A stretch of DNA of 64,000 bases from an uncultured Candidatus Binatia bacterium. GTDB taxonomy: Bacteria > Desulfobacterota > Binatia > Bin18. Shown here piece by piece: positions 1 to 39,662 of the stretch. The notes under the pieces were generated by a model that was given only the letters and a program-made list of their open reading frames with translations, had not been told where the DNA came from and searched no databases. The DNA lies in contig OZ251505.1 of the NCBI GenBank assembly GCA_965242795.1, forward strand, positions 3,265,587-3,329,586. Reading direction: 5' to 3'. The first letter of the stretch is position 1. The number at the start of each line of letters is the position of its first letter. The position numbers and the translations under genes were made by a program.

Positions 1-1073
1 TTGCAGACGACGATCGCGTGGCGGGGACGGTGTTCGTCCACGTAGGCCCGAAGCGCCCTGACGTCTCCCGACCGGACGTTGGCGCCGCCTTTCACCTCGA
101 TCGCCACCGCGCCGTCGCGCCCCAGAACGAAGTCGCATTCCAATCCGGACTTGGTGCGCCAGAACCGCACCGGGACGTCCCGCTCGCGATAGGTTCGCCA
201 CGCCAGCAGTTCCATCAGCACCAGATGTTCCAGCGCACGGCCGAACTCCGGTCCCGCGGCCCGTGCGACCCGCCGTCCGATCACGTGTCCGGCGATGCCC
301 ACGTCGAACAGATAGAACTTCGGCGCGCGGGTGATGACCGCCCGGGAGCGGCGGCGGCTGAACGGTTCCACGAACACGCCGAGCAGGGTATCGACGAGAA
401 TCTGAAAGTACTCGCGGACGGTCTTGGAATCCACGCCGCAGTCCCTGGCGATGTTGCTGTAGTTCACCAACTCCCCGTGGCAGAACGCCAGCGCGTCGAA
501 GAACCGCGCGAACGCGGCCACGTTCCGCGTCAGTCCTTCGTCGAACACCTCCTCCTTCAGATAATCCTGGACGTAGCCCGCCAACGCGCGCCGATGCTGT
601 GCCGCATCGTAATGCGCCGGGATCAGCCCCCGGTTCAGCGCCTTCAGCAAATCGAAGGCCGGGATTTCCGGCCACGTCAGCGGATGCAGGCCGAAACGCC
701 ACGCCCGCCCGCCGAGCAGGTTCGCCTGCCCGCGCTTCAACTTCCGGGCGCTCGACCCGCACAGCACGAAGCGCAGGCCGGCGTTTTCGATCAGCCGATG
801 CACCTCGTCCAGAATCGCCGGCGCTTTCTGCACCTCATCGATGACGACGGGATGGGCGCGCGTGGCGGAATCCAACGCCTGCACCCGTTCCCGGAAGACC
901 CACGGCGCCCGGGTCCATTCCAACAACAACCGGGTGTCGAGCAGATCGAAATGCGCGGAACGCGGAAACAGCCGGCGCAGCAACGTCGATTTGCCGGTTT
1001 TGCGCGGCCCCCACAGAAAGGCCGACTGGCCCGCGGGAAGGTCGAGACGAAGCGTGCGGTCATACTCTTCCAT
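1..1073 (-). CDS. AAA+ ATPase, DUF4143/COG1373 family (partial; C-terminus lies beyond the window start)
   Basis: Reverse-strand translation starts MEEYDRTLRLDLPAGQSAFLWGPRKTGKSTLLRRLFP (Walker A GPRKTGKST) and continues through a DUF4143-like C-terminal region (…FWRTKSGLECDFVLG…IEVKGG…). ATG at 1071-1073. The listed + ORF 18..1283 is its antisense artefact. Confidence 0.75.
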   Translation of the reverse strand, partial: MEEYDRTLRLDLPAGQSAFLWGPRKTGKSTLLRRLFPRSAHFDLLDTRLLLEWTRAPWVFRERVQALDSATRAHPVVIDEVQKAPAILDEVHRLIENAGLRFVLCGSSARKLKRGQANLLGGRAWRFGLHPLTWPEIPAFDLLKALNRGLIPAHYDAAQHRRALAGYVQDYLKEEVFDEGLTRNVAAFARFFDALAFCHGELVNYSNIARDCGVDSKTVREYFQILVDTLLGVFVEPFSRRRSRAVITRAPKFYLFDVGIAGHVIGRRVARAAGPEFGRALEHLVLMELLAWRTYRERDVPVRFWRTKSGLECDFVLGRDGAVAIEVKGGANVRSGDVRALRAYVDEHRPRHAIVVC

Positions 1074-1179
1074 TTCGGAATCCATTCCGAGATAGTCGAA
1101 CCAGTTCGGAATATACTCCGAATTGGTTCAGTCAACAACCGACAGGGAGGATTTCAGATTAGGCGGCCCGGGACCCTGA

Positions 1180-1290
1180 GCTTGTCGAAGGGACGAAGGG
1201 CCGGGGGTCGGGGATATGAGGGTCGGGGTGACATCGGGGTTCGTTTCGACAAGCTCAACGAACTTAGGGACCCCGCCCGTTGAGATCGGT
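1180..1290. repeat. Dispersed ~100-150 bp repeat family ('PFDKLR'-encoding element), copy 1 (opposite orientation to copy 2)
   Basis: …gagcttgtcgaagggacgaagggc… and …gtgacatcggggttcgtttcgacaagctcaacgaacttagggacc… is the reverse complement of …aagttcgttgagcttgtcgaaacgaaccccgatgttac… at ~15270-15330. A related copy lies at ~46290-46440. Confidence 0.55.
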
Positions 1291-1493
1291 CCCCGAGCCT
1301 GCGGGACCTCAATCTCGGTTGGTGAGTCTGTCGAACTCTATCGAAAGGTCGAGGGGTGTCGAGACGGGCTCGGGAGCCTCTCGTATGGTTCTCGATGCAA
1401 GCCACGGAAAGTTCCAGGATCATCCCGGATCTTATTCCCGATTGAAACCTCTGCCATACACTGGTTGTTGGGAGTCGGCTTGCCTGTTTTCCC

Positions 1494-3320
1494 ATGCGCT
1501 GCTCTCTGTTGGACGCCATAGGCGGCTGCGCTACAGTCGCCGGCGTGTCCGCTTCCCCCCCATCCGCCGCCCCGAATGCGACGCGGCGGCTGAGTGCGCT
1601 GCTTGGCCGCTTCGCCCGATTGTCGCCGTTCGTCAAGCCGTATTTCGGACGCCTGGGGCTCGTCTTTCTGCTGTCTTCGTTCGGCGCGGTGCTCGGGCTG
1701 CTGTGGCCGCTGTTTACGAAGATCCTCATCGACGACGTCCTGCTGGCGCGCAACCTGCCGCTGCTGTTCGCGTTGAGCGGGCTGATGGTCGGCGCGACGC
1801 TGCTCGGCTATGGCGTGGGCGCAGTCAATCGCTACGTCTATACCCGCGTGACGGCGCGCGTCCTGTTCACCCTGCGCCAACACCTGTTCGCCCACGTCCA
1901 GAAATTGTCGTTGCGCTTCCACACGCGGACGCGCGTCGGCGACGTGCTGACGCGCCTGAACGCCGACATCGCCGACATCCAGGCCGTCCTGACCGACGCG
2001 GCGTTCACGTTTGCGACCAACCTGTTCGTGCTGTGCGCCAGCGTCGGGTTTCTCGTGTGGCTGGAGTGGCGGCTGTTTCTGGTGAGCCTGGCGCTAGTTC
2101 CCCTCCAGATTTACGGCATCCGCAAAGTCCAGCCGCGGCTGGTGGCCGCCACGCGTCGCGTCCGCGAGTTGAACGCCTCGATTTCGTCGTTTCTGGTCGA
2201 GTCGCTGTCGGCCATCAAATTCGTCAAGCAGTTCGGGGCCGAGGCCGTCCAACTCGACCGGCTGGCGCGGCTGGGGCGCGAATTCGTCCCCACCGTCACC
2301 CGCTACGAAATGGTCGGCTACGTCGGCAGCACGACCACCGGCGCGGCGTCGTTTCTGGGTGGGGCGCTGGTCACCGTGTACGGCGGGTATCTGGTCATCG
2401 ACGGCCAACTCAGCATCGGCAGCCTGGTCGCGTTCACGGCCTACCAGTCGCGCGCCCTGGGTCCGATACAGGTGCTGATGGACCTGTATCTGCGCATCGA
2501 ACGGGCGGGGGTGTCGGTCGACCGGGTCTTCGAATTCCTGGACCTGGGCCGCGACTATCGGGAACCGGCCGGCGGCACGCGCCGCCTCGCCGCAGTGCGC
2601 GGGGAAGTGGAATTCCGCGACGTGACGTTCGGCTATCGGGCCGACGAGGCGGTTCTGCGCGGGCTGAGTTTTCGGGTGCCGGCCGGCCAGCGGGTGACGG
2701 TCCTCGGGCCGAGCGGGGTCGGCAAATCCACGCTGGTCGATCTGCTGATCCGGCTGTACGCCCCCGATGCAGGAAGTATCCTTCTGGACGGCCACGACGT
2801 GCGCCACCTCGATACGACTTGGTTGCGGCAACAGGTGGTGGTGCTCGGCCACGAGCCGGTGTTGTTCCACGCGTCGATGTTCGAGAACGTCCGCTACGCC
2901 AGCCCGCAGGCGTCCCGTGGCGAGGTCGCCCGCGCGCTCGAAACGGTCGGCTTGCATGACTACGTCACGAGCCTGCCGGACGGCTCCGACACCCTGCTCG
3001 GAGAACGCGGGGCACGGCTGTCCGCGGGGCAGCGTCAGCGGGTCGCCCTCGCCCGCGCGCTGCTCAAGAATCCGCGCGTGCTGGTGCTGGACGAAGCCGT
3101 CTCCGGCCTCGACGCCGAAAGCGAAGCCGACCTGCGCGCCGCGCTCGCCGCGGTCATGCGCGACCGGACCACGCTGGCCGTGACCCACCGTCTGACCTCG
3201 CTCCGGCCCGATGATGCGGTGCTCGTGCTGACGAACGGTCGCGCCGCGTGGCAGGGGTGCTACCGCGACTTGGCGCAACGCCCCGAACTCCTACGCGGAA
3301 TCCCCGCCGGAGCCATCTGA
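1494..3320 (+). CDS. qhpF: ABC transporter, fused permease/ATP-binding type I exporter (MsbA-like); QhpF-like candidate exporter for the QHNDH gamma subunit
   Basis: Six-TM N-terminal domain. Walker A GPSGVGKST, ABC signature LSAGQRQRVALARAL, Walker B VLVLDEAVSGLD. Lies beside a QhpE-like subtilisin and the qhpADCB genes. The start may be a later in-frame ATG. Confidence 0.8.
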   Translation: MRCSLLDAIGGCATVAGVSASPPSAAPNATRRLSALLGRFARLSPFVKPYFGRLGLVFLLSSFGAVLGLLWPLFTKILIDDVLLARNLPLLFALSGLMVGATLLGYGVGAVNRYVYTRVTARVLFTLRQHLFAHVQKLSLRFHTRTRVGDVLTRLNADIADIQAVLTDAAFTFATNLFVLCASVGFLVWLEWRLFLVSLALVPLQIYGIRKVQPRLVAATRRVRELNASISSFLVESLSAIKFVKQFGAEAVQLDRLARLGREFVPTVTRYEMVGYVGSTTTGAASFLGGALVTVYGGYLVIDGQLSIGSLVAFTAYQSRALGPIQVLMDLYLRIERAGVSVDRVFEFLDLGRDYREPAGGTRRLAAVRGEVEFRDVTFGYRADEAVLRGLSFRVPAGQRVTVLGPSGVGKSTLVDLLIRLYAPDAGSILLDGHDVRHLDTTWLRQQVVVLGHEPVLFHASMFENVRYASPQASRGEVARALETVGLHDYVTSLPDGSDTLLGERGARLSAGQRQRVALARALLKNPRVLVLDEAVSGLDAESEADLRAALAAVMRDRTTLAVTHRLTSLRPDDAVLVLTNGRAAWQGCYRDLAQRPELLRGIPAGAI

Positions 3321-3348
3321 TGCTCGACTCGGCAGGCGAGCCCGCCGG

Positions 3349-3365
3349 CCGGATTCACAATCCGG
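3349..3365. terminator. Candidate bidirectional stem-loop between convergent qhpF-like and qhpE-like genes
   Basis: ccggatt-cac-aatccgg: perfect 7-bp stem with a 3-nt loop. No clear U-tract follows, so support is weak. Confidence 0.25.
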
Positions 3366-3412
3366 AACGACACGTCCCCTTTGTTTCTCGAAGCGAACGT
3401 GGACAAAGCGGA

Positions 3413-4174
3413 TCAGTGCTTATCCGGCTTCCCTGGGAACGTGGGCATCTCGCCCGCCAACGTCTGCAGACACTCGTATGCGCCGCGTGGTCCGAGGTCG
3501 GGGCAACGCTGGACATGTCGTGCCAGAGCCGCAGCCACGTGCGCCGCGGCGAAGCTGTGGCCGTGAAAATTGCGCTGCTGCGCCGGGCCGGGGAGAGGCC
3601 GCGGGTGCGGATGGGCACGAAACGGAACGGGCTGATCCGCCAGCCAGCGGTACTCGTCCCAGCCACACGTCTCGTCCGCGGCCACGCCGATCATCCCCGG
3701 CAGGCAGGCCGGCAACACGTCGGATCGGTCGGGCGGCGACGAGGCGACCAGAATGACGTTTGCCGCGTGAGCACGGGCGACCAATGCTTCCAGCGGGCCA
3801 CGATGCGCCGGATTCACCAGTCCCAGGCTGAGATTGACGACGTGCATCCCTTCGGTGACGGTCCACTTCAGGGCCGCTTCCAGGACCGGAAACGACGTCG
3901 CCAGATGGTCGGTGAACACCTTGACCGCGTACAATTCCGCGTCCGGTGCCTTGCTCCGCAGCACGCCGGCCAGCGCGGTTCCGTGACCGAGTTGGTCGGC
4001 ATAGTCGGGAAGCGGGACCGGCGCGTTGTTTTCGTCCAGCAAGAAATGGATGCCGCCGGCCACACGCCCGACATGGGAATGCTCGGGGTTCACGCCGCTG
4101 TCGATCAGCGCAACCCTGACGTGCGATGCCGTCCGTACCTCCGCCCCGGTTCTGTCGTCGCGAAGGTCAGCCAT
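3413..4174 (-). CDS. qhpE: Small subtilisin-like serine protease (peptidase S8), QhpE-like leader peptidase candidate
   Basis: 253 aa with the catalytic triad in D-H-S order: ALIDSGV (Asp), HGTALAG (His), GHSFAAAHVAAA (Ser, GTSxAAP-like). Only a catalytic domain is present, matching the unusually small QhpE that processes QhpC in Paracoccus. Genomic context is the qhp cluster. Confidence 0.75.
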   Translation of the reverse strand: MADLRDDRTGAEVRTASHVRVALIDSGVNPEHSHVGRVAGGIHFLLDENNAPVPLPDYADQLGHGTALAGVLRSKAPDAELYAVKVFTDHLATSFPVLEAALKWTVTEGMHVVNLSLGLVNPAHRGPLEALVARAHAANVILVASSPPDRSDVLPACLPGMIGVAADETCGWDEYRWLADQPVPFRAHPHPRPLPGPAQQRNFHGHSFAAAHVAAALARHVQRCPDLGPRGAYECLQTLAGEMPTFPGKPDKH

Positions 4175-4355
4175 TCCGCCGGCCTTCCTCCAAGGCTGCC
4201 ACGCTCTTCAGGATATCAGGTTCGTCGGACGTGTCGCTCTTGACGAAAAAAGGGCAGGGCGTCAGTTTGAAAATTCTCCGTTGCGGAGCACTAGCCTCCG
4301 ATTATGGGGCAGACACAGGGGCCTGCCCCTACGTCCGCGCGGTTGAACTGAGGCA

Positions 4356-5657
4356 TTACTGAAAAAAGGTGTTCCTCGGACTCTCGGTACAATGCTGGTT
4401 CGCTACAGGCATCAGATCTCCCCCGAAGCCGGTATAGGCCTGCACGGACAGGTCTCGACAATCCTGGGAAACGCTCGAGACGGAACCCGCCTCGATGAAC
4501 ACTTCGCACGTCGTGCGGACCAGCGCTTCTTTTGCCGTCAGACCCGCGGCAACCAGTGCGGCTTCGAAATCGTCGGCAGCGGCTTGCGAGTCGGTCTTCC
4601 CCGGCCAATACGAAAAGATCGTCTTCGGATTGACGACGACCTCCCACGACACCGGGTCCCGGTCGACCGTCTGGCCGCAGAGAAAAAATACGTTGCACGT
4701 CGGGCGGGTCTCGGCGTCGTCCGCCGCTTCCGACCGGTCCAGCGCGCAGTAGAGATGCACGTACGCTTGTTGCGGGGAGAGATTCATCAAGGTCGCGACC
4801 TTCTCCGCTCTCCGAGGACTCGTCTCGGGCTCGGGGGATTCGTCGGACGGTGCGGGTTCGCCTGGCTCGTTCGACGCCCCAGGCCGAGCAGGCGGCGCAG
4901 GTTCGTTCGGTGCCGCGGGTTCGCCCGGAGGATTCGTCCTAGTCTCGTCGGATGTCGTGGGCGGCCCGGGCTCGTTCGGTGTTCCGGGTGCGCTGGGCGT
5001 CTCGGGCTCGTCACGCTCGACGACCACGGCGACGGGTTCGATACGATTGACGGCCATAGCGACAGGATACCATCCGTGACTCCCCCAAAACGCCCGATCC
5101 TCCAGATCGCGGGTCAGCCGAACCGCAATGTAGTACGTCCCGGGGGTCAAGCGGCGCTTGTAGAAGAACGACGTGCCGCCATGCCGTCTCTCATGGTCGG
5201 AAGCAATGGCCGATCCGTTTGCATCGAGAATGGTCGGCTCCACATAGATCCAGGCCACCCCCGCCGGCTTGCCTCTATAGCCCACCCCGGCAGCACTGAT
5301 GAACACCTCGAAAGAGGATGCGCCCGACAGATCGAATCGGAAGAAGTCGACGTCCGTGGTGCACCCTTCTTCAACGAATCCTGTCGCGGAGTACGGCGCC
5401 GAGCCCGACTGCCCGTTGAATCGGGAGAGAAGTCGATCATACGGTCGGCTCTCGGGCTGTAGCGTGGGCGGGATGGTCTGGAACGTCGAGGCAGCGAGAA
5501 CCGTTGCGTCCGCTTGCGCGTTTCCGTGGTCGTCGTTCGCGCATTGTGCCGCGGCCGGGAACTGCCCGATACGCGCCGCGGCCGGAACCGGTTCGATACC
5601 GAGCCACGCGCCCATCACTCCTGCGACGACGAGTGACCGTAATCTTGTATACTGCAT
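4356..5657 (-). CDS. Secreted protein with a Pro-rich repetitive linker (NEPGPP/NEPAPP units) and a pre-peptidase C-terminal (PPC)-like domain
   Basis: N-terminal signal peptide MQYTRLRSLVVAGVMGAWLG…AAA. PPC-like motif DVDFFRFDLSGASSFEV…LTPGTYYIAVR. Low-complexity PEPT-rich segment. Confidence 0.55.
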   Translation of the reverse strand: MQYTRLRSLVVAGVMGAWLGIEPVPAAARIGQFPAAAQCANDDHGNAQADATVLAASTFQTIPPTLQPESRPYDRLLSRFNGQSGSAPYSATGFVEEGCTTDVDFFRFDLSGASSFEVFISAAGVGYRGKPAGVAWIYVEPTILDANGSAIASDHERRHGGTSFFYKRRLTPGTYYIAVRLTRDLEDRAFWGSHGWYPVAMAVNRIEPVAVVVERDEPETPSAPGTPNEPGPPTTSDETRTNPPGEPAAPNEPAPPARPGASNEPGEPAPSDESPEPETSPRRAEKVATLMNLSPQQAYVHLYCALDRSEAADDAETRPTCNVFFLCGQTVDRDPVSWEVVVNPKTIFSYWPGKTDSQAAADDFEAALVAAGLTAKEALVRTTCEVFIEAGSVSSVSQDCRDLSVQAYTGFGGDLMPVANQHCTESPRNTFFQ

Positions 5658-5749
5658 TGTGACTGCTCCCCCCTTCGTGGAACCCGGATGCTCGTATCAG
5701 TTCTTTCACCTGCCTGCTACCTATCCGAAAGGGTATCCCGACTGCGGTA

Positions 5750-5975
5750 GCGATTGCCCAACGGCGGGCGGCTGTGGTGGCGGTGAGGCCGCTTCGAGGA
5801 GGCGACAGGTATGCGCATTCCTGCGTGCGTTCCATTCATGGCGTTCGTGGCGTTGTGGGCCGGCTCGACGATCTGGCCGAGACCGGCCGGCGCCGAACAA
5901 CCGGCCGTGGCGGCGTCCGAGGCCGCGCTTTCGGCGGGGGAGATTCTGGTGCAGAGATCATCAGGCTGCCGTGCA
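5750..5975. repeat. Direct repeat copy 1 (~225 bp, ~85% identical to 8216-8440) covering the qhpA promoter-proximal region and 5' coding end
   Basis: ttgcccaacggcgggcggctgtggtggcggtgaggccgcttcgaggaggcgacaggtatgcgcattcctgcgtgcgttccattcatggcgttcgtggcg… versus the near-identical stretch at 8216 onward. Confidence 0.7.
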
Positions 5976-6005
5976 CCGGAGGAGGCGGTCGAGCGCTGGA
6001 TGTGA
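5811..6005 (+). pseudogene. Truncated duplicate of the qhpA 5' end (signal peptide plus first CxxCH-like region, then divergence and stop)
   Basis: MRIPACVPFMAFVALWAG…AGEIL.QR.SGC matches the QhpA N-terminus (8273..) for ~55 aa. The ~50 bp upstream, including RBS gaggaggcgacaggtATG, is also duplicated. The reading frame decays after the CSGC motif. Confidence 0.6.
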
Positions 6006-6049
6006 CGCACGCTCGGCGTGCACCCTCCCGCCCACCAGCTTAACTTTGA

Positions 6050-8200
6050 GGCGAGCTACGGCTGGTTAAGTTTGCATAGCAGACGGATGCAGTACACGGA
6101 ACATAGGATGCCCCTCTCTATTTACGGAAAGGAAGATCCACTTCCCAAAGGCGACCTTCATGGGTGTATTGGCCGGATACAATTCGCCTGATGTCGTACG
6201 CTGGAAGTGGGACGACCAATATACACTTGTTGTCAAATGCCATACCGCAGGAAGGGAATTTGAAAACCAAATCGTCAAAGTTGTAGGATCTGTACCGCGA
6301 CGGTAAGGCTGCGTGGTCAGCTGGATAAACATTTAGAAAGAATCCCGGCTTTTTGTCGGATAGGACACACGGTTCCCTAACGTACACTAACGTTCTATTG
6401 TGGAGATAAATATCGAAATGAGAGTGTGCTAAGGGTTTTCTAGAGAGAACTGCCTGGTATATGTTTTGAAAATTGACTGCGTGAAACCGAGCATAGGAAT
6501 TTGCTAAATGCAACAGACCGATACCGCCTACAACGACGAAAAAGGACACAATAAGCTGAGGCGTCCGAACAAAATTCGTCATCTGATAGGTGTGTAGAAA
6601 ATTTAATATTCGCTGCCGAACGCCCGTTAATAAGCATCGACGAATTGAACTCACGATTATTTCGCTGCTTATGGCGGACTGCGGCCCGAGTCGGCGACTT
6701 ATCTTATGTGACGTTGATACTTGAATCCAGAACAGCTCTAGAGAATATAAAAAAAGGAAAAGGGCAAGAAGATATTCGTCCCACTCCTCCAACCTGGCTC
6801 CTTTACGAATCAATTGCCCAATGAATGTGGTTGTTACGAAAAAACCACTCGTTACACAGGCAATGAATAGCTTATGCTTTTTAAAAATCAGCGCAAAGAG
6901 AAAAAGAAGGAGTATGCCTATTTTGTCCGGGGTGAAAAGGAATCTTACCCAGAGAGAAAGTAGGCCAAGACTATCGATCGGATTGTTCTCGTTGATGGCA
7001 ACCCCAGAAAAATTCGCTACCAGAAACCCCAATATTAGGAAAATAGATGGGAGAGGAATTCCGAAGAACGTATTTTTTTTGCCAAAGAAAGCGAGGATGG
7101 TCATGAGAACCATGATCCGCATTCCATCTACTCTGACGAGGGTATGAATTTTATGTAGTACCCTGATATTGTGTAAATTAGTTTCATTCTGGGTATTTAT
7201 GTCCGCCCAAAAATCGGGCATCGGGTAGTTGAGAATACGGTGCCCCCAACTGATTTCTTCTCCGGTGGCATAGAAAAGCGCTATGCCCCCTAAGATGTAG
7301 AGCCGTCGCTGAAAGGGCCTTTGTTCCATTCGGGCGGTGGCGAATAAGAAGATGCTCCCCAGAAACAGCCAGACCGATGTCAGATTTTCGACCCAAGAAT
7401 CTTCTTTGGCTGAATACAGGAAGCAACATGGGTCGCTATATATAAGATAGTGAAAGAGGACAGAATTCAAACACAAGCAAAGGTAAGCGAGTGTAGGGAT
7501 CGTGTTTGCTCGGAGAGTAAAAGCAGAAAATTGGCCATGATCTTTTTCCATCTTTTGACCCTTTGTGGATCTGCTTCGGGTCTTTCAACGTCCGTTTTCT
7601 CGGCCTGAAATTGTCGGAGCCGACCGTCGCCACTATCGGGGGCTACCCTCGTTCCCCGAAGCTACATGTATCGTCTGTGTATGGCAACTGGCGCGGAACC
7701 CCAGGACGGCTCCCAATGTCTGTTGAACCGGCAACCGTCATGCACTACCGGTGCGATTGCCTCGTTCTGAGCGGCTGTGGTCAGGGTCAAGCCACTTTAA
7801 GGAGTCACCGGGCATGCGTATGCTAGTGTGCTTTCCGTTTGTGGTGTCGGAGAAGGGCTAGGCTGATGGTCCGACCGAGACCGTCCCAGAGCCGAAGCAA
7901 CAGGTTATGGCAGCCCGAGTTCGTCTTCCGGGCATCGGAGATTCTGGAGGGAAGATGTTCAGGCTGGTCAAGGCGGGGCTGGCGCGGGTTCTTCTCTCAA
8001 GCGGATGCCGTACGGACCCCGGCTGTGCTATTCTTTTCCTGCTGATAGAGGGAACTCTACTTCTTAGAGACGACCCTCGGAGATGAACTGGTCAGATACG
8101 GTCCACTAATATCGTACTTTGGAAGTGACACAACCGCTACTTAAGCGAACCAAGGCAAACTTCTAGTTCCCTTTCAATGTTCATCAGGCGGCGCCTGCGG
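6050..8200. other. Low-GC (~40%) insertion island between the duplicated qhpA 5' fragments
   Basis: Abrupt compositional shift relative to ~65% GC flanks. Carries one large membrane-protein gene and ~650 bp of non-coding sequence, and is bounded by the 225-bp direct repeats. Confidence 0.6.
6118..7551 (-). CDS. Polytopic integral membrane protein (at least 10 predicted TM helices), function unknown; encoded on the low-GC island
   Basis: 477-aa ORF, AT-rich codon usage, long hydrophobic stretches (…LFLGSIFLFATA…, …ILGFLVANFSGVAI…, …LLALFLFLYSLELFW…). No recognisable catalytic motif. Confidence 0.55.
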   Translation of the reverse strand: MEKDHGQFSAFTLRANTIPTLAYLCLCLNSVLFHYLIYSDPCCFLYSAKEDSWVENLTSVWLFLGSIFLFATARMEQRPFQRRLYILGGIALFYATGEEISWGHRILNYPMPDFWADINTQNETNLHNIRVLHKIHTLVRVDGMRIMVLMTILAFFGKKNTFFGIPLPSIFLILGFLVANFSGVAINENNPIDSLGLLSLWVRFLFTPDKIGILLLFLFALIFKKHKLFIACVTSGFFVTTTFIGQLIRKGARLEEWDEYLLALFLFLYSLELFWIQVSTSHKISRRLGPQSAISSEIIVSSIRRCLLTGVRQRILNFLHTYQMTNFVRTPQLIVSFFVVVGGIGLLHLANSYARFHAVNFQNIYQAVLSRKPLAHSHFDIYLHNRTLVYVREPCVLSDKKPGFFLNVYPADHAALPSRYRSYNFDDLVFKFPSCGMAFDNKCILVVPLPAYDIRRIVSGQYTHEGRLWEVDLPFRK

Positions 8201-8215
8201 GATCATTGGAAGAGG

Positions 8216-8440
8216 TTGCCCAACAGCGGGCGGCTATGGTAGCGGTGAGGCCGCTTTGAGGAGGCGACAGGTATGCGCATTCCAGCGTGCGTTCCATTTA
8301 TGGCGTTCGTGGTGTTGTGGGTCGGCTTGGTGATCCGGCCGGGATCGGCCGGCGCCGAACAACAGGCCGCGACGGCGTCCGATGTCGCGCTTCCGGCGGG
8401 GGAGATTCTGGAGCAGCGCTGTTCGGGCTGCCATGCGTCG
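8216..8440. repeat. Direct repeat copy 2 (functional qhpA upstream region and 5' end)
   Basis: See copy 1 at 5750-5975. Confidence 0.7.
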
Positions 8441-9949
8441 GAACAGGAGGGCGGGCCGCTGGACGCGATTGCGGAACAGCGCAAGACGCCCGAAGGCTGG
8501 AGCATGACGCTCAGCCGTATGGCGCGGACCCACGGCGTGGAGTTGCAGGCAGGCGAGGCGCGCATCCTGGTCAAGTATCTGAGCGACCGCTACGGGCTGG
8601 CGCCCGCGGAGGTCGAGCCCTACCGCTTCATTCTGGAGCAGCGCAACATTCGTACTTCGGAGGAGGTTCCCGCACCGCTGAAAGCCGGCTGCGTACAGTG
8701 CCATACGTACGCGCGAACCGCGTTGCAGTACCGCACCGAAGATGCGTGGCTGCGGCTGGCGGATACCAAAGTCGCCATCATGGCGAATATCGGCAGCGAG
8801 ACGGCTTCGGCCGGGTTGCTGCGCGACTATTGGTACGACGATGCGAAGAACAACGCGTTTCCGTATCTTGCTGAGCATCAACCGTTCGAGACCGAAGCGT
8901 GGACGGCGTGGCAGACCAAGAAGAAGCCGGACTATGCCGGTCGCTGGGTGGTAGTCGGCCACGATCCCGGCCGCGGCGGGGAATACACCGGGACGCTGCG
9001 TCTCGACGCGCTCGGGAACGACCGCTACCGCGGCGAATTTTCGTATGCCTTCGCGGACGGCTCGCAACTGACGGGCACGACGACCGGCACGGTGTACACC
9101 GGCTTTCAGTGGCGTGGGGTGGCGCGGACGGACTCCGATGACGGAGACGACGCCCCACAGCGCGAGATCATGTTCGCGTCGGAAGACGGCGGCACGCTGG
9201 TCGGGCGGCGCTTGCTGACCAATTTCGGCGACCTCGGCATGGACGAGACGTGGTACCGCCGTACAGACCGTGCGCGGCTGCTCGCGGTGAATCCCCGGAG
9301 CGTTCGGACGGGAAGCACCCAGACCGTCAGGCTTTTCGGGACGGGTTTTTCCGAGACGTTGCTGTCGGACGGAGGGCTGACGTTCGGCGATGGGGTCACG
9401 GTGTCGTCCGCGCGGATCGAGGGCGACACCGCGGTCGTCGCCGAGGTGTCGGTCGAGGCCGGCGCGACGGAGGGGCTACGCAAGGTCGGGATCGGCGGCG
9501 CGGACGGGCAAGGCCAAGTCGCAGTGTACGACACGGTGGATTACGTCCGGGTTTTCCCGGAGCGCGGGTTCGCGCGCCCGGGCGGGATTCGGACCCCGAA
9601 GATTTTTCAGCAGTACGAGGCCGTCGGCTACGCCAACGGGCCGGACGATAAGAAAGGAACGGACGACGACGTGCGGCTGGGCCGGATCTCACCGATCCGC
9701 TGGAATCTCGAAGAGTACGTCAAACGCCCGAACGACGACGACGTCCGCTACGTCGGTTCCATCGATCAGCACGGCCTGTTTCTGCCCAACGTGGACGGGC
9801 CGAACGCGAACCGGCATCTGATGGAGGGCAACGTCGGCGACGTGTGGGTCGAGGCGTGGTACGCGCCCGACGGCGCGAAACGGCCGATGGGCGCGCGGGC
9901 GCATCTGCTTGTCATGCCGGCCAAATTCATCTTTCCCCCGATAGAATAG
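8273..9949 (+). CDS. qhpA: Quinohemoprotein amine dehydrogenase alpha subunit (N-terminal di-haem cytochrome c domain plus beta-rich domains)
   Basis: Signal peptide, then two haem c sites CSGCH and CVQCH within the first 150 aa. 558 aa in total. The next gene starts 2 nt after the stop (TAG…ATG). Followed by rSAM/SPASM (qhpD), a small Cys/Trp-rich gamma subunit (qhpC) and a beta-propeller protein (qhpB). Confidence 0.85.
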   Translation: MRIPACVPFMAFVVLWVGLVIRPGSAGAEQQAATASDVALPAGEILEQRCSGCHASEQEGGPLDAIAEQRKTPEGWSMTLSRMARTHGVELQAGEARILVKYLSDRYGLAPAEVEPYRFILEQRNIRTSEEVPAPLKAGCVQCHTYARTALQYRTEDAWLRLADTKVAIMANIGSETASAGLLRDYWYDDAKNNAFPYLAEHQPFETEAWTAWQTKKKPDYAGRWVVVGHDPGRGGEYTGTLRLDALGNDRYRGEFSYAFADGSQLTGTTTGTVYTGFQWRGVARTDSDDGDDAPQREIMFASEDGGTLVGRRLLTNFGDLGMDETWYRRTDRARLLAVNPRSVRTGSTQTVRLFGTGFSETLLSDGGLTFGDGVTVSSARIEGDTAVVAEVSVEAGATEGLRKVGIGGADGQGQVAVYDTVDYVRVFPERGFARPGGIRTPKIFQQYEAVGYANGPDDKKGTDDDVRLGRISPIRWNLEEYVKRPNDDDVRYVGSIDQHGLFLPNVDGPNANRHLMEGNVGDVWVEAWYAPDGAKRPMGARAHLLVMPAKFIFPPIE

Positions 9950-9950
9950 C

Positions 9951-11465
9951 GTGGTATGCGGTACTCGGGCAGAGACGCCGATGGAACTCCACTTCCGCGC
10001 CGAGAACGCGCATACGGTCCCCCAGACCGGCTTGTCGGGGAACGACGCCGCGCCCGACATTCTGGTCGCCGCGAAAAGCATGTCCATGTTCGTCATGGAT
10101 TCCGTCTCGGAAGCCGTTCTCGGCTACATGCGGTCGCATCCGCATTCCAGCGAAGCGGCACTGAGCGAAGCGCTGTCGCCCCGATTCTCGACGGACTCGG
10201 TCAGCGAGACCGTCCGGGAATTGCTCGCCCTGGAAATCCTGCACTCTCACGACCGGCCTGCGTCGCCGGCCCCGCTTCCCACGCTCGACGTCGAGCGCTT
10301 CCCGGTCACGTCACTGGTCGTGAACGTGGCCAATAAATGCAACCTGCACTGCACCTATTGTTACGAGCCGGACGGGGCCAAGTACGGACCGTCGCCGGTG
10401 CAGATGGATTGGACGACGGCGCGCGCCAGCGTCGATTTTCTGTTCGGGAAGTCGGGGCGCAGCAAAGAAGTGAACCTGATCTTCTTCGGCGGGGAGGCGC
10501 TGTTGAATTTTCCGCTCATGCGCCGCGTGGTGGCGTATGCCGAGGACAAGGCGGCGGCCGAAGGCAAGACCGTCGATTTTTCGCTCACCACCAACGGCAC
10601 GCTGTTGACCGACGAGGTGATCGATTTCTTCCAGACCCACCGCTTCGGCGTGACGGTCAGCATCGACGGGCCTAAGGACCTGCACGACAAGCGGCGCGTC
10701 TTCCTGAACGCGCGCGGTGGGCAGGTCGGGTCGTACGAGATGCTGCGGCCGCGGCTGGAACGATTGTTCGAACGCTACACCGCCCGACCGGTGGTGGCGC
10801 GCATCACGGTCGCCAGGGACGCCGTCGACGTGGTCCGCACGTACGAGCATCTGACCGAACTCGGCTTTTTCGAGGTCGGCTTTTCACCGGTCACCGCGCA
10901 GCCCGGAGCCGAGTACGGCTTGGAACCCGCGGATTTGCGCGACCTGTTGGATCAGTTCCGCGCATTGGGCGACGTCTACGTCGAACGCGCGCTCGACGGC
11001 CGCTATACCGGCTTCTCCAACCTGAGCACGCTGCTGACGGACATCCACGTGGGAACGAACAAGCTGTTCCCGTGCGGCGCCGGTCTGGGCCTGCTGGACG
11101 TGGACGGCAACGGCGACGTGTATCTATGCCACCGCTTCCCGGGCACAGACGAGCAGAAATACGGCAGCGTGCAGGACGGTCTGGACTACGACCGCCTCAA
11201 CACGTTCATCAACGGCGCCCATGTCGGGAACAAGCCCGTGTGTCAGACGTGCTGGATTCGCGGACTGTGCGGCGGCGGCTGTTACCACGAAGCCCAGACC
11301 GAGTTCGGCGACGCTACCCTGCCGAACCTGCACTACTGCGACTTCCTGCGCGCCTGGACCGAGTACGGTATCGGCGTGTACATGCAGCTTCAGGCGCGTG
11401 TGCCCGGCTTCATCGAGCGATACGTGGTACGCGGGCGGGGCGACGCGCCGAAGGAACTCACGTAG
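9951..11465 (+). CDS. qhpD: Radical SAM/SPASM-domain peptide maturase, QhpD (thioether Cys-to-Asp/Glu crosslinking enzyme for QhpC)
   Basis: CxxxCxxC radical-SAM motif VANKCNLHCTYCYE. C-terminal SPASM Cys cluster (CQTCWIRGLCGGGCYHE; CDFLRAW). Sits between qhpA and qhpC as in Paracoccus/Pseudomonas qhp operons. Confidence 0.85.
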   Translation: MVCGTRAETPMELHFRAENAHTVPQTGLSGNDAAPDILVAAKSMSMFVMDSVSEAVLGYMRSHPHSSEAALSEALSPRFSTDSVSETVRELLALEILHSHDRPASPAPLPTLDVERFPVTSLVVNVANKCNLHCTYCYEPDGAKYGPSPVQMDWTTARASVDFLFGKSGRSKEVNLIFFGGEALLNFPLMRRVVAYAEDKAAAEGKTVDFSLTTNGTLLTDEVIDFFQTHRFGVTVSIDGPKDLHDKRRVFLNARGGQVGSYEMLRPRLERLFERYTARPVVARITVARDAVDVVRTYEHLTELGFFEVGFSPVTAQPGAEYGLEPADLRDLLDQFRALGDVYVERALDGRYTGFSNLSTLLTDIHVGTNKLFPCGAGLGLLDVDGNGDVYLCHRFPGTDEQKYGSVQDGLDYDRLNTFINGAHVGNKPVCQTCWIRGLCGGGCYHEAQTEFGDATLPNLHYCDFLRAWTEYGIGVYMQLQARVPGFIERYVVRGRGDAPKELT

Positions 11466-11504
11466 ACGAGCGCGGTAAAGGCGCACGGAATCGAGGAGAA
11501 GGCC

Positions 11505-11864
11505 ATGAAACACCTCACAGCAGCCAATCGGAAGGCGCGGGCCGTGAGCGCCGCGGTCGACGCCCAGGAGGAGGGGCGCCCCGCGGCCACGCCGAAGGTG
11601 GTCGAAGACGTCATCGGCATGGCACAGCCCATCGGCTGTACGACCATCTTCAACCCCGGCTGGGAAGCGAACCCGTGGGGCGGCGCGAGCAGCATGTGCG
11701 CACCCATGGAAGCCGACCTGCTGAGTTGCGCCAACCTGTGCTGGTGGCCGGCGCAGGTGCCGGACAGCCTGCAGAACGCCCCGGAGTGGGCCAAGGCGTG
11801 CTCCGGTATGAATCAGGAAGACTGGCGCAACCTGGACGTGGTCTTTCCCAAGCTCGACGATTGA
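11505..11864 (+). CDS. qhpC: QHNDH gamma subunit precursor QhpC (leader peptide plus Cys/Trp-rich core bearing the CTQ cofactor and thioether crosslinks)
   Basis: 119 aa. Basic/Ala-rich leader, then a core with five Cys, Trp and multiple Asp/Glu (…GCTTIFNPGWEANPWGG…MCAPMEADLLSCANLCWWPAQ…). RBS gaggagaaggccATG. Its position between the rSAM gene and the beta-propeller gene is diagnostic. Confidence 0.8.
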   Translation: MKHLTAANRKARAVSAAVDAQEEGRPAATPKVVEDVIGMAQPIGCTTIFNPGWEANPWGGASSMCAPMEADLLSCANLCWWPAQVPDSLQNAPEWAKACSGMNQEDWRNLDVVFPKLDD

Positions 11865-11900
11865 TCCGGGCGCCGCTCGGAATCTCCGCTGGATCCGGCA

Positions 11901-13010
11901 ATGCTGCAATTCGGACACGCCCGGCGCCGTTCGACGCCATGGGCCGGCGGTTTGCTGCTGGCCTGCGCCCTGTTCGCCGTGCCGCGGACGGCCTGGGCGA
12001 AGTGGTATCTGCTCGCCAGCACCCACCCCAACAATCTGGTCGTCGTGGACACCGAGACGGATGCGGTCGTCCAGGACATCGCGTTGGAGGGCCGCGGCCC
12101 GGCGTTGTACATCGCGCCCAATCCCGCGCAGCCGCAGTTCGCGTACGTCGTCAACAACCTGGCCCGAAGCGTGGCGATGGTCGATCTCGACGAGGGCAAG
12201 CAGGTCAGGAGTTTCGACCTGTCGAGCGACGGCCAACTCGTGCGGACGATGGCCATTGACGTGAACACGCAGGGGACGCGGCTGTTCGTCCATGAAATGC
12301 CGATCGCCCAGGACCTCGGTCGTTACGCCGCACAGGAAAACCGCATCCGGGTCATCGACCTGAAGACCAACGAAACGGTCACCACGTTTCCCGCGCCGCG
12401 GCAAGTCATGTCGTTGGCTTCATCTCAGGACGGGGAACGCCTGTACGCGTTCAGCGTCGGCCAGGACATCTTCGTGTACGACGCCGAGACCGGCGCCCCG
12501 CTCGACACCATCCCGCTCGCCAACCGCAACATCAGCGGCATCGCCCGGACCGACGGCCTGCCGCTCGGCGGCACCTACCAGGAGAGCGGCCATCTGGTCT
12601 CGTTCGGCACTTTCACCACGGATTCGATCACCAAACAGATCACGCTGGGAATCGGGTCGCTCGACCTCACGCAGAAAGAGCCGGAGTTGAAGATCGTGGA
12701 ATTGCAACCCTTCGTCGAAGGCGATTATCTGCTCACCGGCACGCTGTCGCCCCACACGGGCAAGGCGTATTTCGGGTACAACAGTTTGTGGCGGGTGGAC
12801 CCCGAAACCCGCCACATCGAAAAGAAGGTGCCCCTGTCGAACACGTACTTCGCGCCGCTGGTGCACCCCGAGGGCAAGAAAATCTACTGCGGCAGCAATT
12901 GGCACGACGTGGCGGTGTTCGACGCCGAGTCGCTCGAACTGCTCACCAAGGTCGAACTCGGCCATTCGCAGACCGGCGGGGTGAGCGTGTTGCGATTCGT
13001 CGACCGCTGA
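11901..13010 (+). CDS. qhpB: QHNDH beta subunit QhpB (seven-bladed beta-propeller), signal peptide present
   Basis: N-terminal signal peptide (…LLLACALFAVPRTAWA), repetitive beta-strand-rich sequence typical of a propeller, ~369 aa. Directly follows qhpC. Confidence 0.75.
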   Translation: MLQFGHARRRSTPWAGGLLLACALFAVPRTAWAKWYLLASTHPNNLVVVDTETDAVVQDIALEGRGPALYIAPNPAQPQFAYVVNNLARSVAMVDLDEGKQVRSFDLSSDGQLVRTMAIDVNTQGTRLFVHEMPIAQDLGRYAAQENRIRVIDLKTNETVTTFPAPRQVMSLASSQDGERLYAFSVGQDIFVYDAETGAPLDTIPLANRNISGIARTDGLPLGGTYQESGHLVSFGTFTTDSITKQITLGIGSLDLTQKEPELKIVELQPFVEGDYLLTGTLSPHTGKAYFGYNSLWRVDPETRHIEKKVPLSNTYFAPLVHPEGKKIYCGSNWHDVAVFDAESLELLTKVELGHSQTGGVSVLRFVDR

Positions 13011-13075
13011 TCTGCCGGCCTCCGTCTTCCATCCCGCACCGCAGGAAGGCCGCGGCGGCTTTCCAACGTCACCTC

Positions 13076-13699
13076 ATGTTTCTCTCGCGGCGCACCGTCT
13101 TACAGGGGCTCGGCTGTGCCGCCCTGCTGAGCCACGCCCGCGACCTCGCGTTCGCGCTGGAGCAGGGCCGGCCTGCGGATTTCGCGTCGGTCGTCGAACG
13201 GCGGCGGATGATCCGCCGCTATACGGATCGTCCCGTTTCGGAGGAAGCCGTCACCACGCTGCTGCGTTACGCGGTGCGCGCACCGAGCGCCGGCAATCTG
13301 CAACCGTGGGAGTTCATCGTGGTGCGCGACCCCGCGGTGCGTGCGGACTTGGCGAAGGCCGCCATGAACCAACGTTCGGTCGCGACCGCGCCGGTGATCG
13401 TCGCCACGTGCGCCGACGTGCAGCGCATGGGCGAAAAGTACGGTACGCGAGGCGCCTTCTACAGCTTGGTGGATACGGCCTTCGCTTCGTTGCTGATTCT
13501 GCTGGGCGCGACCGAGCAGGGCTTGGGTGCGTGTTTCGTCGGCGCCTACGATCCGGCCGCGGTCGCAAAGATTTTCGGCTTACCCGATCACGTGCGCCCG
13601 GTCGGGCTCATCACGCTGGGCCATCCCGCGGAGGAGCCGCGCAAGCCGTCGGGCAAGCGAATCCCGCTCGAACGACTCATCCACGAGAACGTCTGGTAG
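13076..13699 (+). CDS. Nitroreductase-family flavoprotein with a predicted twin-arginine (Tat) signal peptide
   Basis: MFLSRRTVLQGLGCAALLSHARDLAFA (S-R-R-x-V-L motif plus AxA site), then the nitroreductase core (…APSAGNLQPWEFIVV…). The in-frame ATG at 13076 is preferred over the upstream track start at 12788. Confidence 0.7.
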   Translation: MFLSRRTVLQGLGCAALLSHARDLAFALEQGRPADFASVVERRRMIRRYTDRPVSEEAVTTLLRYAVRAPSAGNLQPWEFIVVRDPAVRADLAKAAMNQRSVATAPVIVATCADVQRMGEKYGTRGAFYSLVDTAFASLLILLGATEQGLGACFVGAYDPAAVAKIFGLPDHVRPVGLITLGHPAEEPRKPSGKRIPLERLIHENVW

Positions 13700-13936
13700 G
13701 GGAATTGCATATTTGAGGATCCTTGCCTGTTCTTTCCTTTCCATGACGATGTGGAGGGGCGTGAAATCTTACGCCTCTCCGGCTGACGGGTGACAAAAAG
13801 GCGTCTCAGGATCGTCGAGTAGGGAATCCCCTGTGGTAAGGTCCCTGCCGCCTCTTCGTCACGGTGGGCGAAAACCTCATACGCAATCGGACGGTTCGAC
13901 GGTCGCCGAAGTGGAGACCCTGTCAAGGAAGGAGGC

Positions 13937-16659: not shown

Positions 16660-16682
16660 TCTCGACTGAAGGAGCGGAACCC

Positions 16683-17735: not shown

Positions 17736-17737
17736 GT

Positions 17738-36750: not shown

Positions 36751-36802
36751 GGCGCCCTACGGGCACGCTAAAGAATGGATATAACGTAGCCGGTCCACGC
36801 AG

Positions 36803-37474: not shown

Positions 37475-37479
37475 GATCC

Positions 37480-39642: not shown

Positions 39643-39662
39643 AGGCGGCTCCTTTTATTGTC

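What the first reader, a model, noticed from the sequence alone, without database searches (positions are those of the whole stretch)
1494..13010. Complete QHNDH (qhp) locus with unusual architecture and no qhpG in the window
All diagnostic components are recognisable. qhpA has CSGCH and CVQCH haems. qhpD is a radical-SAM/SPASM enzyme. qhpC is a 119-aa Cys/Trp/Asp/Glu-rich gamma subunit with a leader. qhpB is a signal-peptide beta-propeller. The QhpE-like protein is a 253-aa catalytic-domain-only subtilisin. The QhpF-like protein is an MsbA-type exporter. Unlike the Paracoccus qhpADCBEFGR operon, E and F lie upstream of A, convergent to each other. No FAD-dependent QhpG monooxygenase (needed for Trp hydroxylation en route to cysteine tryptophylquinone) and no AraC-type regulator lie nearby. 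Only a Tat-signal nitroreductase follows qhpB. This suggests an alternative CTQ-maturation route or a qhpG located elsewhere. It also places the RiPP-like QhpC maturation system in a lineage far from the proteobacterial models.
Basis: partly seen in the sequence, partly recalled or inferred. Interest (0 to 1): 0.55.

Follow-up and report, generated by a model that had tools for sequence, protein, structure and literature searches.

The report
Ordinary Binatia amine-dehydrogenase (qhp) gene cluster
This is an intact gene cluster for quinohemoprotein amine dehydrogenase in an uncultured Binatia bacterium; the "missing" maturation gene qhpG almost certainly lies about 200 bases beyond the left edge of the window, so the locus is ordinary.

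Summary
qhpF, E, A, D, C and B are present, intact and at the stated coordinates. No QhpG homologue lies anywhere in the 64 kb window.

The window comes from a Candidatus Binatia genome. In about 40 related Binatia loci the standard order is qhpG(-) qhpF(+) qhpE(-) qhpADCB(+). The qhpG there is genuine (NCBIfam QhpG model, 275-278 bits against a cut-off of 240) and sits divergently upstream of qhpF.

In this window that position holds a defence-type ATPase gene (AAA_14/DUF4143) that runs off the left edge. The closest relative with a left flank is 92% identical in DNA and colinear up to window base 1. It reads qhpG - ATPase - qhpF, which places qhpG at about window -1718 to -225. An alternative route to the cofactor is therefore not needed.

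All eight modified QhpC residues are conserved, and all genes are under purifying selection.

Two things are new:
- A Tat-signal nitroreductase-fold gene follows qhpB in every locus of this architecture that has downstream sequence (43 in the genome scan).
- A 2.2 kb low-GC insertion, flanked by duplicated qhpA 5' ends, separates qhpA from its native upstream region.

The parts
3..1085 (-). AAA_14/DUF4143 ATPase gene. It resembles the PADLOC candidate defence family PDC-S01. Its 3' end is cut by the window's left edge. It is not a qhp gene; it sits between qhpF and the expected position of qhpG.
   Evidence: Pfam AAA_14 plus DUF4143. PADLOC PDC-S01, 3e-52. The orthologue in L147 (96.9% aa identity) lies between qhpG and qhpF. 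L002 keeps only a remnant of its first ~36 codons, 47 bp from the qhpG start.
1494..3320 (+). qhpF: ABC exporter (permease plus ATPase) for the processed gamma subunit.
   Evidence: ABC_membrane plus ABC_tran. 32% identical to Paracoccus QhpF over 550 aa. Walker A at 405 and LSAGQ at 509. Syntenic with qhpG and qhpE in about 40 Binatia loci. dN/dS 0.17.
3413..4174 (-). qhpE: subtilisin-like leader peptidase.
   Evidence: NF049966 QhpE, 175.1 bits against a cut-off of 165. D25/H64/S207. dN/dS 0.22.
4356..5657 (-). Gene for a 433-aa secreted protein: signal peptide, weak PPC-like domain, Pro-rich linker, Cys-containing C-terminal domain. It is specific to this subclade and its function is unknown.
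   Evidence: No family at E<=0.001 in Pfam, NCBIfam, PADLOC, PHROGs or PDB. Weak PPC hit, E=0.028. Found only in L002, L146, L147 and L148. dN/dS 0.28.
5746..6005 (+). Pseudo-copy 1 of the qhpA upstream region plus its first 64 codons. CSGCH has mutated to SSGCR and the reading frame ends at a stop. This is the native junction with the upstream genes.
   Evidence: 85% identical to 8208-8456. Its upstream part matches the native qhpA upstream region of L002. Aligns to L147 14268-14574. Translation.
6001..8207 (.). Inserted segment. Its core (about 6100-7600) is low-GC, 38-47%. It is flanked by a ~256-bp duplication of the qhpA 5' end. It contains a 477-aa membrane-protein ORF at 6118-7551 (-) and a degenerate third copy of the qhpA 5' end at 7771-7966.
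   Evidence: Composition. Repeats. Absent from L002, L146 and L147 but shared with sister contig L064. The 477-aa ORF has no curated family but 4880 uncharacterised relatives among cluster representatives.
8273..9949 (+). qhpA: di-haem alpha subunit with a signal peptide.
   Evidence: TIGR03908, 439.8 bits; four QHNDH alpha-subunit Pfam domains. CSGCH at 50 and CVQCH at 140.
9951..11465 (+). qhpD: radical-SAM/SPASM enzyme that forms the thioether crosslinks. The true start may be at 9981, giving the 494 aa seen in relatives.
   Evidence: TIGR03906, 547.5 bits against a cut-off of 453. CNLHCTYC at 130. C431x2Cx5Cx3C plus C375, C393 and C463.
11505..11864 (+). qhpC: gamma-subunit precursor with a ~38-residue leader and an 81-residue core.
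   Evidence: NF037958, 122.7 bits. Matches 1JMX_G and 1JJU_C at 2e-24. C45, E54, C65, D71, C75, C79, W81 and D87 correspond to Paracoccus C7, E16, C27, D33, C37, C41, W43 and D49.
11901..13010 (+). qhpB: beta-propeller beta subunit with a signal peptide.
   Evidence: TIGR03907, 171 bits, below the 223 cut-off. 1JJU_B at 9.6e-34 over the full length. dN/dS 0.08.
13076..13699 (+). Gene for a Tat-signal, nitroreductase-fold flavoprotein (207 aa). It is a clade-specific extra member of the operon and its role is unknown.
   Evidence: Pfam Nitroreductase, 5e-31. Lies directly after qhpB in 43 genome loci at 59-97% identity. The twin arginines are invariant in 34 orthologues. AF2 model pLDDT 80.8; generic nitroreductase fold with top match 4DN2. 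dN/dS 0.11.

Best explanation
The region is a functional, canonical qhp gene cluster of a Candidatus Binatia bacterium. It makes periplasmic quinohemoprotein amine dehydrogenase (QHNDH).

The mechanism is inferred by homology to the Paracoccus and Pseudomonas systems:
1. QhpC is made with a ~38-residue leader.
2. QhpD installs three Cys-to-Asp/Glu thioethers: C45-E54, C65-D71 and C79-D87.
3. QhpG dihydroxylates W81.
4. QhpE removes the leader.
5. QhpF exports the peptide.
6. In the periplasm it assembles with the Sec-exported QhpA (two c-type haems) and QhpB. The C75-W81 cysteine tryptophylquinone is completed there.

The window lacks qhpG only because its left edge falls 1.1 kb upstream of qhpF. 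In this sublineage a defence-type ATPase gene lies between qhpF and the divergently oriented qhpG. This places qhpG about 0.2-1.7 kb outside the window.

Shown here: the identity and intactness of F, E, A, D, C and B; conservation of all modified residues; purifying selection; the clade-wide G-F-E-ADCB-nitroreductase order; and colinearity with a relative that has qhpG.

Inferred: that qhpG is present in this exact genome; every biochemical step; and that qhpADCB is still transcribed after the insertion upstream of qhpA.
For: - Family assignments above curated cut-offs for A, D, C and E. B matches only the QHNDH beta subunits among solved structures.
- All eight QhpC residues that are modified in the crystal structures are conserved.
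- The QhpG model NF049967 scores 275.3 (L002) and 277.9 (L147) against a cut-off of 240.
- Full-length QhpG lies next to qhpF in 38 or more related loci.
- Window 1-4253 aligns colinearly with L147 8554-12761 at 91.7% DNA identity. In L147 the order is qhpG (6835-8328, -), ATPase (8460-9626, -), qhpF (10001, +).
- L002 keeps a remnant of the ATPase 5' end between qhpG and qhpF. This shows the same ancestral order.
- dN/dS is 0.08-0.28 for all genes compared with L147.
Against: - The sequence to the left of the window is not available. Exact look-ups and an exact-pattern scan did not find the source genome.
- At least one related locus (L055) has 5.5 kb upstream of qhpF without qhpG, so adjacency is not universal.
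- The 2.2 kb insertion leaves only ~65 bp of native upstream sequence in front of the intact qhpA, so expression is unproven.
- Some relatives (L150-L152) show decaying qhp loci.
Confidence: 0.85

Rival explanations
1. qhpG is truly absent from this genome's qhp locus (lost or relocated). Tryptophan hydroxylation is done by another enzyme, for example the nitroreductase-fold flavoprotein after qhpB.
For: No QhpG homologue in 64 kb. A conserved flavoprotein gene is fused to the operon. One relative (L055) lacks qhpG within 5.5 kb of qhpF.
Against: - Every relative with the nitroreductase and enough flank also has qhpG, so the nitroreductase does not replace it.
- The nitroreductase carries an invariant Tat signal and so is periplasmic, whereas QhpG acts in the cytoplasm in a QhpC-D-G complex (PMC7876137).
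- The 92%-identical colinear relative has qhpG just past the window edge.
Confidence: 0.05
2. The locus is being inactivated by mobile and defence-gene insertions and no longer yields active enzyme. The intact-looking genes are recent relics.
For: - An insertion with duplicated or pseudogenised qhpA 5' ends lies directly upstream of qhpA.
- Defence-type genes flank the cluster.
- Restriction-modification insertions or remnants lie between qhpD and qhpC in L002, L146 and L147.
- L150-L152 have fragmented qhpA and qhpD.
Against: - All seven ORFs are full-length, with catalytic and modified residues intact.
- dN/dS is 0.08-0.22 for the qhp genes.
- Sister contig L064 shares the insertion and still has qhpA-D-C-B and the nitroreductase at 92-98% aa identity.
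Confidence: 0.08
3. The A/C/B proteins belong to a different quinohemoprotein family (not QHNDH), with a different substrate class or cofactor.
For: Only 33-48% identity to the Paracoccus subunits. QhpB falls below the equivalog cut-off. QhpC has a longer leader and an extra Cys99.
Against: - The A, C and D equivalog models are passed by wide margins.
- All CTQ and crosslink residues are conserved.
- The complete set of maturation genes co-occurs in the clade.
Confidence: 0.02

Closest known systems
Paracoccus denitrificans / P. pantotrophus qhp cluster: qhpG(-) qhpADCBEF(+) qhpR(-). Structure 1JJU; QhpG structure 7CTQ.
   Same: - The same seven protein families are present: A, D, C, B, E and F in the window, and G in close relatives.
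- The core order ADCB is the same.
- The set of modified QhpC residues is identical.
- QhpA has two haems, QhpD is a radical-SAM/SPASM enzyme and QhpE has the Ser-protease triad.
   Different: - E and F lie upstream of A (F+, E-) rather than downstream. G is divergent from F rather than from A.
- No AraC-type qhpR and no aldehyde dehydrogenase lie nearby.
- The QhpC leader is ~38 residues rather than 28.
- A Tat-signal nitroreductase gene is appended after qhpB.
- Amino-acid identity is 29-48%.
Pseudomonas putida QHNDH (peaABCD; structures 1JMX and 1JMZ).
   Same: QhpC matches 1JMX_G at 1.6e-24 and QhpB matches 1JMX_B at 2.4e-25. Same heterotrimer components.
   Different: Distant sequence and a different arrangement of flanking genes.
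qhp clusters of other Candidatus Binatia genomes, automatically annotated in NCBI as QHNDH subunits.
   Same: The order G(-) F(+) E(-) A D C B nitroreductase is identical, at 59-98% aa identity, in 40 or more genomes.
   Different: This genome and its nearest relatives have:
- the ATPase gene between G and F;
- the 433-aa secreted-protein gene between E and A;
- together with L064 only, the low-GC insertion in front of qhpA.
This genome lacks the second A'-C'-DUF4412-B' set that many relatives carry.
Other tryptophylquinone maturation systems: MauG for TTQ in methylamine dehydrogenase, and LodB/GoxB for CTQ in LodA/GoxA.
   Same: The Binatia QhpG also hits the LodB and GoxB models (139 and 112 bits, far below cut-off). 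This reflects a shared flavoprotein fold.
   Different: Those systems act on a mono-hydroxylated Trp in a large protein. Here the full QhpC/D/E/F machinery, which resembles RiPP peptide maturation, is present (PMC7876137).

Membership tests
qhp / QHNDH gene cluster | Di-haem alpha subunit QhpA: two CxxCH motifs and four characteristic domains. | tested here: met
   TIGR03908 scores 439.8 against a cut-off of 274.35. Pfam PF09098, PF14930, PF09099 and PF09100 are all found. CSGCH at 50 and CVQCH at 140.
qhp / QHNDH gene cluster | Gamma subunit QhpC with a leader, the CTQ pair (Cys37/Trp43) and three Cys-Asp/Glu crosslink pairs. | tested here: met
   NF037958 scores 122.7 against a cut-off of 50. 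C45, E54, C65, D71, C75, C79, W81 and D87 align with the modified residues of 1JJU_C and 1JMX_G. The chemical modifications themselves cannot be tested here.
qhp / QHNDH gene cluster | Radical-SAM/SPASM maturase QhpD encoded between qhpA and qhpC. | tested here: met
   TIGR03906 scores 547.5 against a cut-off of 453. CxxxCxxC at 130 and seven C-terminal Cys.
qhp / QHNDH gene cluster | Beta-propeller beta subunit QhpB. | tested here: met
   Full-length match to 1JJU_B (9.6e-34) and 1JMX_B (2.4e-25), with no other strong PDB hit. Position after qhpC is conserved. Caveat: TIGR03907 scores 171.3, below the 223.2 equivalog cut-off.
qhp / QHNDH gene cluster | Subtilisin-like leader peptidase QhpE. 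| tested here: met
   NF049966 scores 175.1 against a cut-off of 165. D25/H64/S207.
qhp / QHNDH gene cluster | Dedicated ABC exporter QhpF. | tested here: inconclusive
   No curated QhpF model exists and all ABC models score below cut-off. It is 32% identical to Paracoccus QhpF and strictly syntenic with qhpE and qhpG in about 40 loci. Orthology is likely but rests on synteny.
qhp / QHNDH gene cluster | FAD monooxygenase QhpG encoded in or next to the cluster. | tested here: not met
   Not present in the 64 kb window. Present next to qhpF in relatives (NF049967, 275-278 bits against a cut-off of 240). By colinearity with L147 it is predicted at about window -1718 to -225. Its presence in this genome cannot be tested with the data held.
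qhp / QHNDH gene cluster | AraC-type regulator QhpR adjacent, as in Paracoccus. | tested here: not met
   Paracoccus QhpR finds nothing in the window. No AraC-family gene is in the genes scanned or in the 10 kb to the left of qhpF in L147. This is not a universal feature of qhp clusters.
qhp / QHNDH gene cluster | Amine-dependent dehydrogenase activity with a CTQ cofactor. | not testable with these tools
   Requires biochemistry.
Tat-exported nitroreductase-superfamily flavoprotein | Twin-arginine signal peptide followed by a nitroreductase fold. | tested here: met
   The N-terminus is MFLSRRTVLQGLG...AFA. The twin arginines are invariant in 34 orthologues and [ST]RRxxLQ is present in the orthologues of 41 related loci. 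Pfam PF00881 at 5e-31. In the AF2 model residues 1-34 are a separate low-confidence helix and the rest is a nitroreductase fold (TM 0.69-0.72 to 4DN2, 3EOF and 1NOX). Export and FMN binding were not tested.

The most novel reading that the evidence does not exclude
In this Binatia lineage the qhp operon has gained an eighth, obligatory member: a Tat-exported, nitroreductase-fold flavoprotein encoded 10-120 bp after qhpB. It could act in the periplasm on QHNDH itself. One possibility is that it catalyses the still-unassigned final oxidation and Cys-Trp crosslinking that convert 6,7-dihydroxy-Trp to CTQ. Another is that it serves as the enzyme's redox partner. It would add to QhpG, not replace it.
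Probability: 0.12. Interest if true: 0.6.

Novelty: new member of a known kind. Interest (0 to 1): 0.2.

Why it matters
It matters little for the headline claim. The locus does not point to a QhpG-independent route to cysteine tryptophylquinone, and the apparent gap is a window-edge effect.

It does document three things:
- QHNDH with its full maturation machinery, which resembles RiPP peptide maturation, is widespread in the uncultured phylum Binatota. The main genomic survey of that phylum discussed only mau-type methylamine dehydrogenase (PMC8262859).
- These operons consistently carry an uncharacterised periplasmic nitroreductase-fold flavoprotein gene. This is a candidate for the final, unassigned periplasmic step of CTQ formation, or for electron transfer.
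- The loci are repeatedly hit by defence-gene and low-GC insertions.

Tried and rejected
1. I tested whether the 433-aa ORF between qhpE and qhpA is a divergent QhpG. It has no PDB, Pfam or NCBIfam match and is a secreted Pro-rich protein. Rejected.
2. Exact-sequence look-ups of the window's QhpD and QhpC found nothing on record. An exact 45-mer from window 3-47 had 0 hits in metagenome contigs. The source genome could therefore not be extended directly.
3. I searched for relatives of the ATPase in metagenome contigs, hoping to find one next to qhpG. Eighty loci came back and none was near qhp genes. The left flank was finally reached through the closest qhpF homologue.
4. My first nitroreductase query was off by one base and out of frame. 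I repeated it in the correct frame. Only the identities should be used.
5. The promoter and terminator scan of 900-14000 gave counts at the level of shuffled controls. It was uninformative.
6. PADLOC, PHROGs and relaxed Pfam searches for the 477-aa and 433-aa ORFs gave nothing usable.
7. The structure prediction and Foldseek search for the nitroreductase gave a generic nitroreductase fold with no specific functional neighbour.
8. Literature searches for QHNDH with nitroreductase, or for Binatota with amine dehydrogenase, found no papers.

Full report
**What is there**

The window is 63-71% GC over most of its length, with a few low-GC islands.
- qhpF, 1494-3320 (+): a generic MsbA/HlyB-like ABC exporter.
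- qhpE, 3413-4174 (-): NF049966 scores 175.1 against a cut-off of 165.
- qhpA, 8273-9949 (+): TIGR03908 scores 439.8, and all four alpha-subunit Pfam domains are found.
- qhpD, 9951-11465 (+): TIGR03906 scores 547.5.
- qhpC, 11505-11864 (+): NF037958 scores 122.7.
- qhpB, 11901-13010 (+): TIGR03907 scores 171, below its 223 cut-off. Its only strong matches among solved structures are the QHNDH beta subunits 1JJU_B (9.6e-34) and 1JMX_B.

The sequence motifs are all present:
- CSGCH at 50 and CVQCH at 140 in QhpA.
- CNLHCTYC at 130 plus seven SPASM cysteines in QhpD.
- D25/H64/S207 in QhpE.
- Walker A and the LSAGQ signature in QhpF.

A 207-aa nitroreductase-family gene follows qhpB at 13076-13699. 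Its N-terminus, MFLSRRTVLQGLG...AFA, is a twin-arginine (Tat) signal.

Aligned to the crystallised gamma subunits 1JJU_C and 1JMX_G (E about 2e-24), window residue n corresponds to Paracoccus mature residue n-38.
- The crosslink pairs Cys7-Glu16, Cys27-Asp33 and Cys41-Asp49 correspond to C45-E54, C65-D71 and C79-D87.
- The CTQ pair Cys37/Trp43 corresponds to C75/W81.
- All eight residues are conserved.
- The leader is about 38 residues, against 28 in Paracoccus.
- There is one extra cysteine, C99.

**The qhpG question**

I took a reference QhpG from a Paracoccus pantotrophus plasmid qhp locus (L001). That protein matches the solved QhpG structure 7CTQ at 2e-43 and scores 402.9 on NF049967. Neither it nor a Binatia QhpG finds anything in the 64 kb window. 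The literal observation therefore holds.

The context changes its meaning.
- A scan of species-representative genomes with QhpD returned 62 loci. Nearly all come from Candidatus Binatia metagenome-assembled genomes (taxonomy).
- In 38 or more of them a full-length ~495-aa QhpG homologue lies beside qhpF. In the loci built like the window it is directly upstream of qhpF and divergent from it, giving the order G(-) F(+) E(-) A D C B.
- The L002 protein scores 275.3 on NF049967 against a cut-off of 240.
- A second, smaller Binatia group has the order A D C B E(+) F(-) G(-).

In the window, the place upstream of qhpF is taken by an AAA_14/DUF4143 ATPase gene at 3-1085 (-), which runs off the left edge.
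- L002 keeps a remnant of this gene: its first ~36 codons plus the gene's own upstream palindrome. The remnant lies 47 bp from the qhpG start.
- This predicted an ancestral order G - ATPase - F.
- I reached the closest relative with a left flank through the nearest qhpF homologue (P0241, 96% aa identity). That contig is L147 (ENA ERZ23496098, scaffold_620).
- L147 reads FGE-sulfatase(+), QhpG 6835-8328 (-), ATPase 8460-9626 (-), qhpF 10001 (+), E, 436-aa ORF, A, D, C, B, nitroreductase.
- Its QhpG scores 277.9 on NF049967.
- Window 1-4253 aligns colinearly with L147 8554-12761 at 91.7% DNA identity.
- Window base 1 therefore lies 93 bp before the ATPase stop, and qhpG maps to about window -1718 to -225.

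It is met by inference from a near relative and not from the same genome, which I could not find.

**Is the architecture unusual?**

It differs from Paracoccus, which has G(-) ADCBEF(+) R(-). It is nevertheless the norm for this clade. [quoted passage not shown] NCBI already labels Binatia proteins as QHNDH subunits. No AraC-type regulator or aldehyde dehydrogenase lies in the window or in the left flank of L147.

**The nitroreductase**

With the correct reading frame (my query was frame-shifted), the gene is found directly after qhpB.
- It follows qhpB in every locus with the window's gene order (G-F-E-ADCB) that has downstream sequence. That is 43 loci in the genome scan, at 59-97% identity, plus further metagenome contigs.
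- The next conserved gene, a MaoC hydratase gene, sits at variable distance.
- The twin arginines are invariant in 34 aligned orthologues.
- dN/dS is 0.11.
- The AF2 model (pLDDT 80.8) has a generic nitroreductase fold, closest to 4DN2, 3EOF, 1NOX, NfrA1, cyclodipeptide oxidase and BluB. Residues 1-34 form a detached low-confidence helix, consistent with a signal peptide.
- It co-occurs with qhpG, and it is predicted to be periplasmic whereas QhpG acts in the cytoplasm. It is therefore an addition, not a substitute.
- Its role is unknown. The final periplasmic oxidation and crosslinking step of CTQ formation is unassigned in the literature, which makes this gene a candidate worth testing.

**The gap between qhpE and qhpA**

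This gap contains the following.
- A 433-aa secreted, Pro-rich ORF with a weak PPC-like domain. It is shared only with the closest relatives.
- The native qhpA upstream region plus 64 codons, now a pseudogene in which CSGCH has become SSGCR (5746-6005).
- A segment whose core (about 6100-7600) is 38-47% GC. It carries a 477-aa membrane-protein ORF (6118-7551, -).
- A degenerate second copy of the qhpA 5' end (7771-7966).
- The intact qhpA, preceded by only ~65 bp of duplicated native upstream sequence.

Sister contig L064 (92-98% aa identity) shares the insertion. L002, L146 and L147 do not. The membrane protein has no curated family but 4880 uncharacterised relatives among cluster representatives. 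In longer proteins its C-terminal ~110-residue module is repeated up to ten times.

**Function and integrity**

Compared with L147, dN/dS is 0.08-0.28 for F, E, the 433-aa ORF, A, D, C, B, the nitroreductase and the ATPase. All ORFs have the same lengths as in relatives. The locus is therefore most likely functional. Some relatives show decay, and the insertion may have changed how qhpADCB is regulated.

**Verdict**

This is a correct gene-level observation of an ordinary, clade-typical qhp cluster. The proposed alternative maturation route is not supported. The modest novelty lies in the conserved Tat-signal nitroreductase gene and in the mosaic of insertions.

Noticed in passing
window 5746-8456: The qhpA 5' end is present three times: a pseudo-copy at 5746-6005, a degenerate copy at 7771-7966 and the real gene from 8208. 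The copies flank a 2.2 kb low-GC insertion. Only ~65 bp of native upstream sequence remains in front of the intact qhpA. Sister contig L064 shares this; L002, L146 and L147 do not.
   Followed up: partly
window 6118-7551 (-): A 477-aa low-GC membrane-protein ORF with no Pfam, NCBIfam, PADLOC or PHROGs family. It has 4880 uncharacterised relatives among cluster representatives (326 at E<=1e-30). In longer proteins its C-terminal ~110-aa module (residues ~360-475) is repeated up to 10 times.
   Followed up: partly
window 3-1129: An AAA_14/DUF4143 ATPase gene matching the PADLOC candidate defence family PDC-S01. A 32-nt palindrome, GAACCAGTTCGGAATATACTCCGAATTGGTTC (1098-1129), lies just upstream. 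The same palindrome accompanies this ATPase family in unrelated metagenome contigs, so it may be an operator.
   Followed up: partly
window 16422-18280 (+): A lower-GC island encoding an AbiLi/PDC-M38A-like AAA_21/AAA_15 ATPase and a DUF3226 (PDC-M38B-like) protein. This is a probable two-gene anti-phage system. It is also present in L146.
   Followed up: partly
L002 11519-14383; L146 7235-8236; L147 17629-18630: Relatives have a low-GC type II restriction-modification pair (a 356-aa ORF plus a 541-aa Eco57I-like methyltransferase), or its remnant, inserted between qhpD and qhpC. The window has an uninterrupted 39-bp D-C gap.
   Followed up: partly
L008 13713-19026, and about 15 other Binatia loci: A second structural set, qhpA'-qhpC'-DUF4412-qhpB', plus an amidohydrolase gene follows the nitroreductase. 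It has no second D, E, F or G, which suggests two QHNDH isozymes share one maturation machinery. It is absent from the window.
   Followed up: partly
window 1183-1269, 15284-15367 (inverted), weaker copy at 46358-46425: An ~85-nt repeated intergenic element with 12-bp terminal inverted repeats, GAGCTTGTCGAA...TTCGACAAGCTC. It looks like a miniature mobile or REP-type element and is also present in L147 and L064.
   Followed up: no
window 36000-40000 and 52000-54000: Further low-GC stretches (45-55% against ~65% background). They may be additional foreign islands. I did not examine them.
   Followed up: no
L150-L152 (contigs carrying nitroreductase homologue P0181): qhp loci with fragmented qhpA and qhpD and inserted methyltransferase or DUF87 genes, but intact qhpC, qhpB and the nitroreductase. 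This indicates ongoing decay of the cluster in some populations.
   Followed up: no
L002 1976-3466; L147 6835-8328: Binatia QhpG is ~497 aa, against 412-432 aa in Paracoccus. It has a conserved C-terminal tail beyond the NCBIfam model. It scores higher against halogenase CmlS than against 7CTQ in a plain sequence search, although the curated QhpG model is passed.
   Followed up: partly
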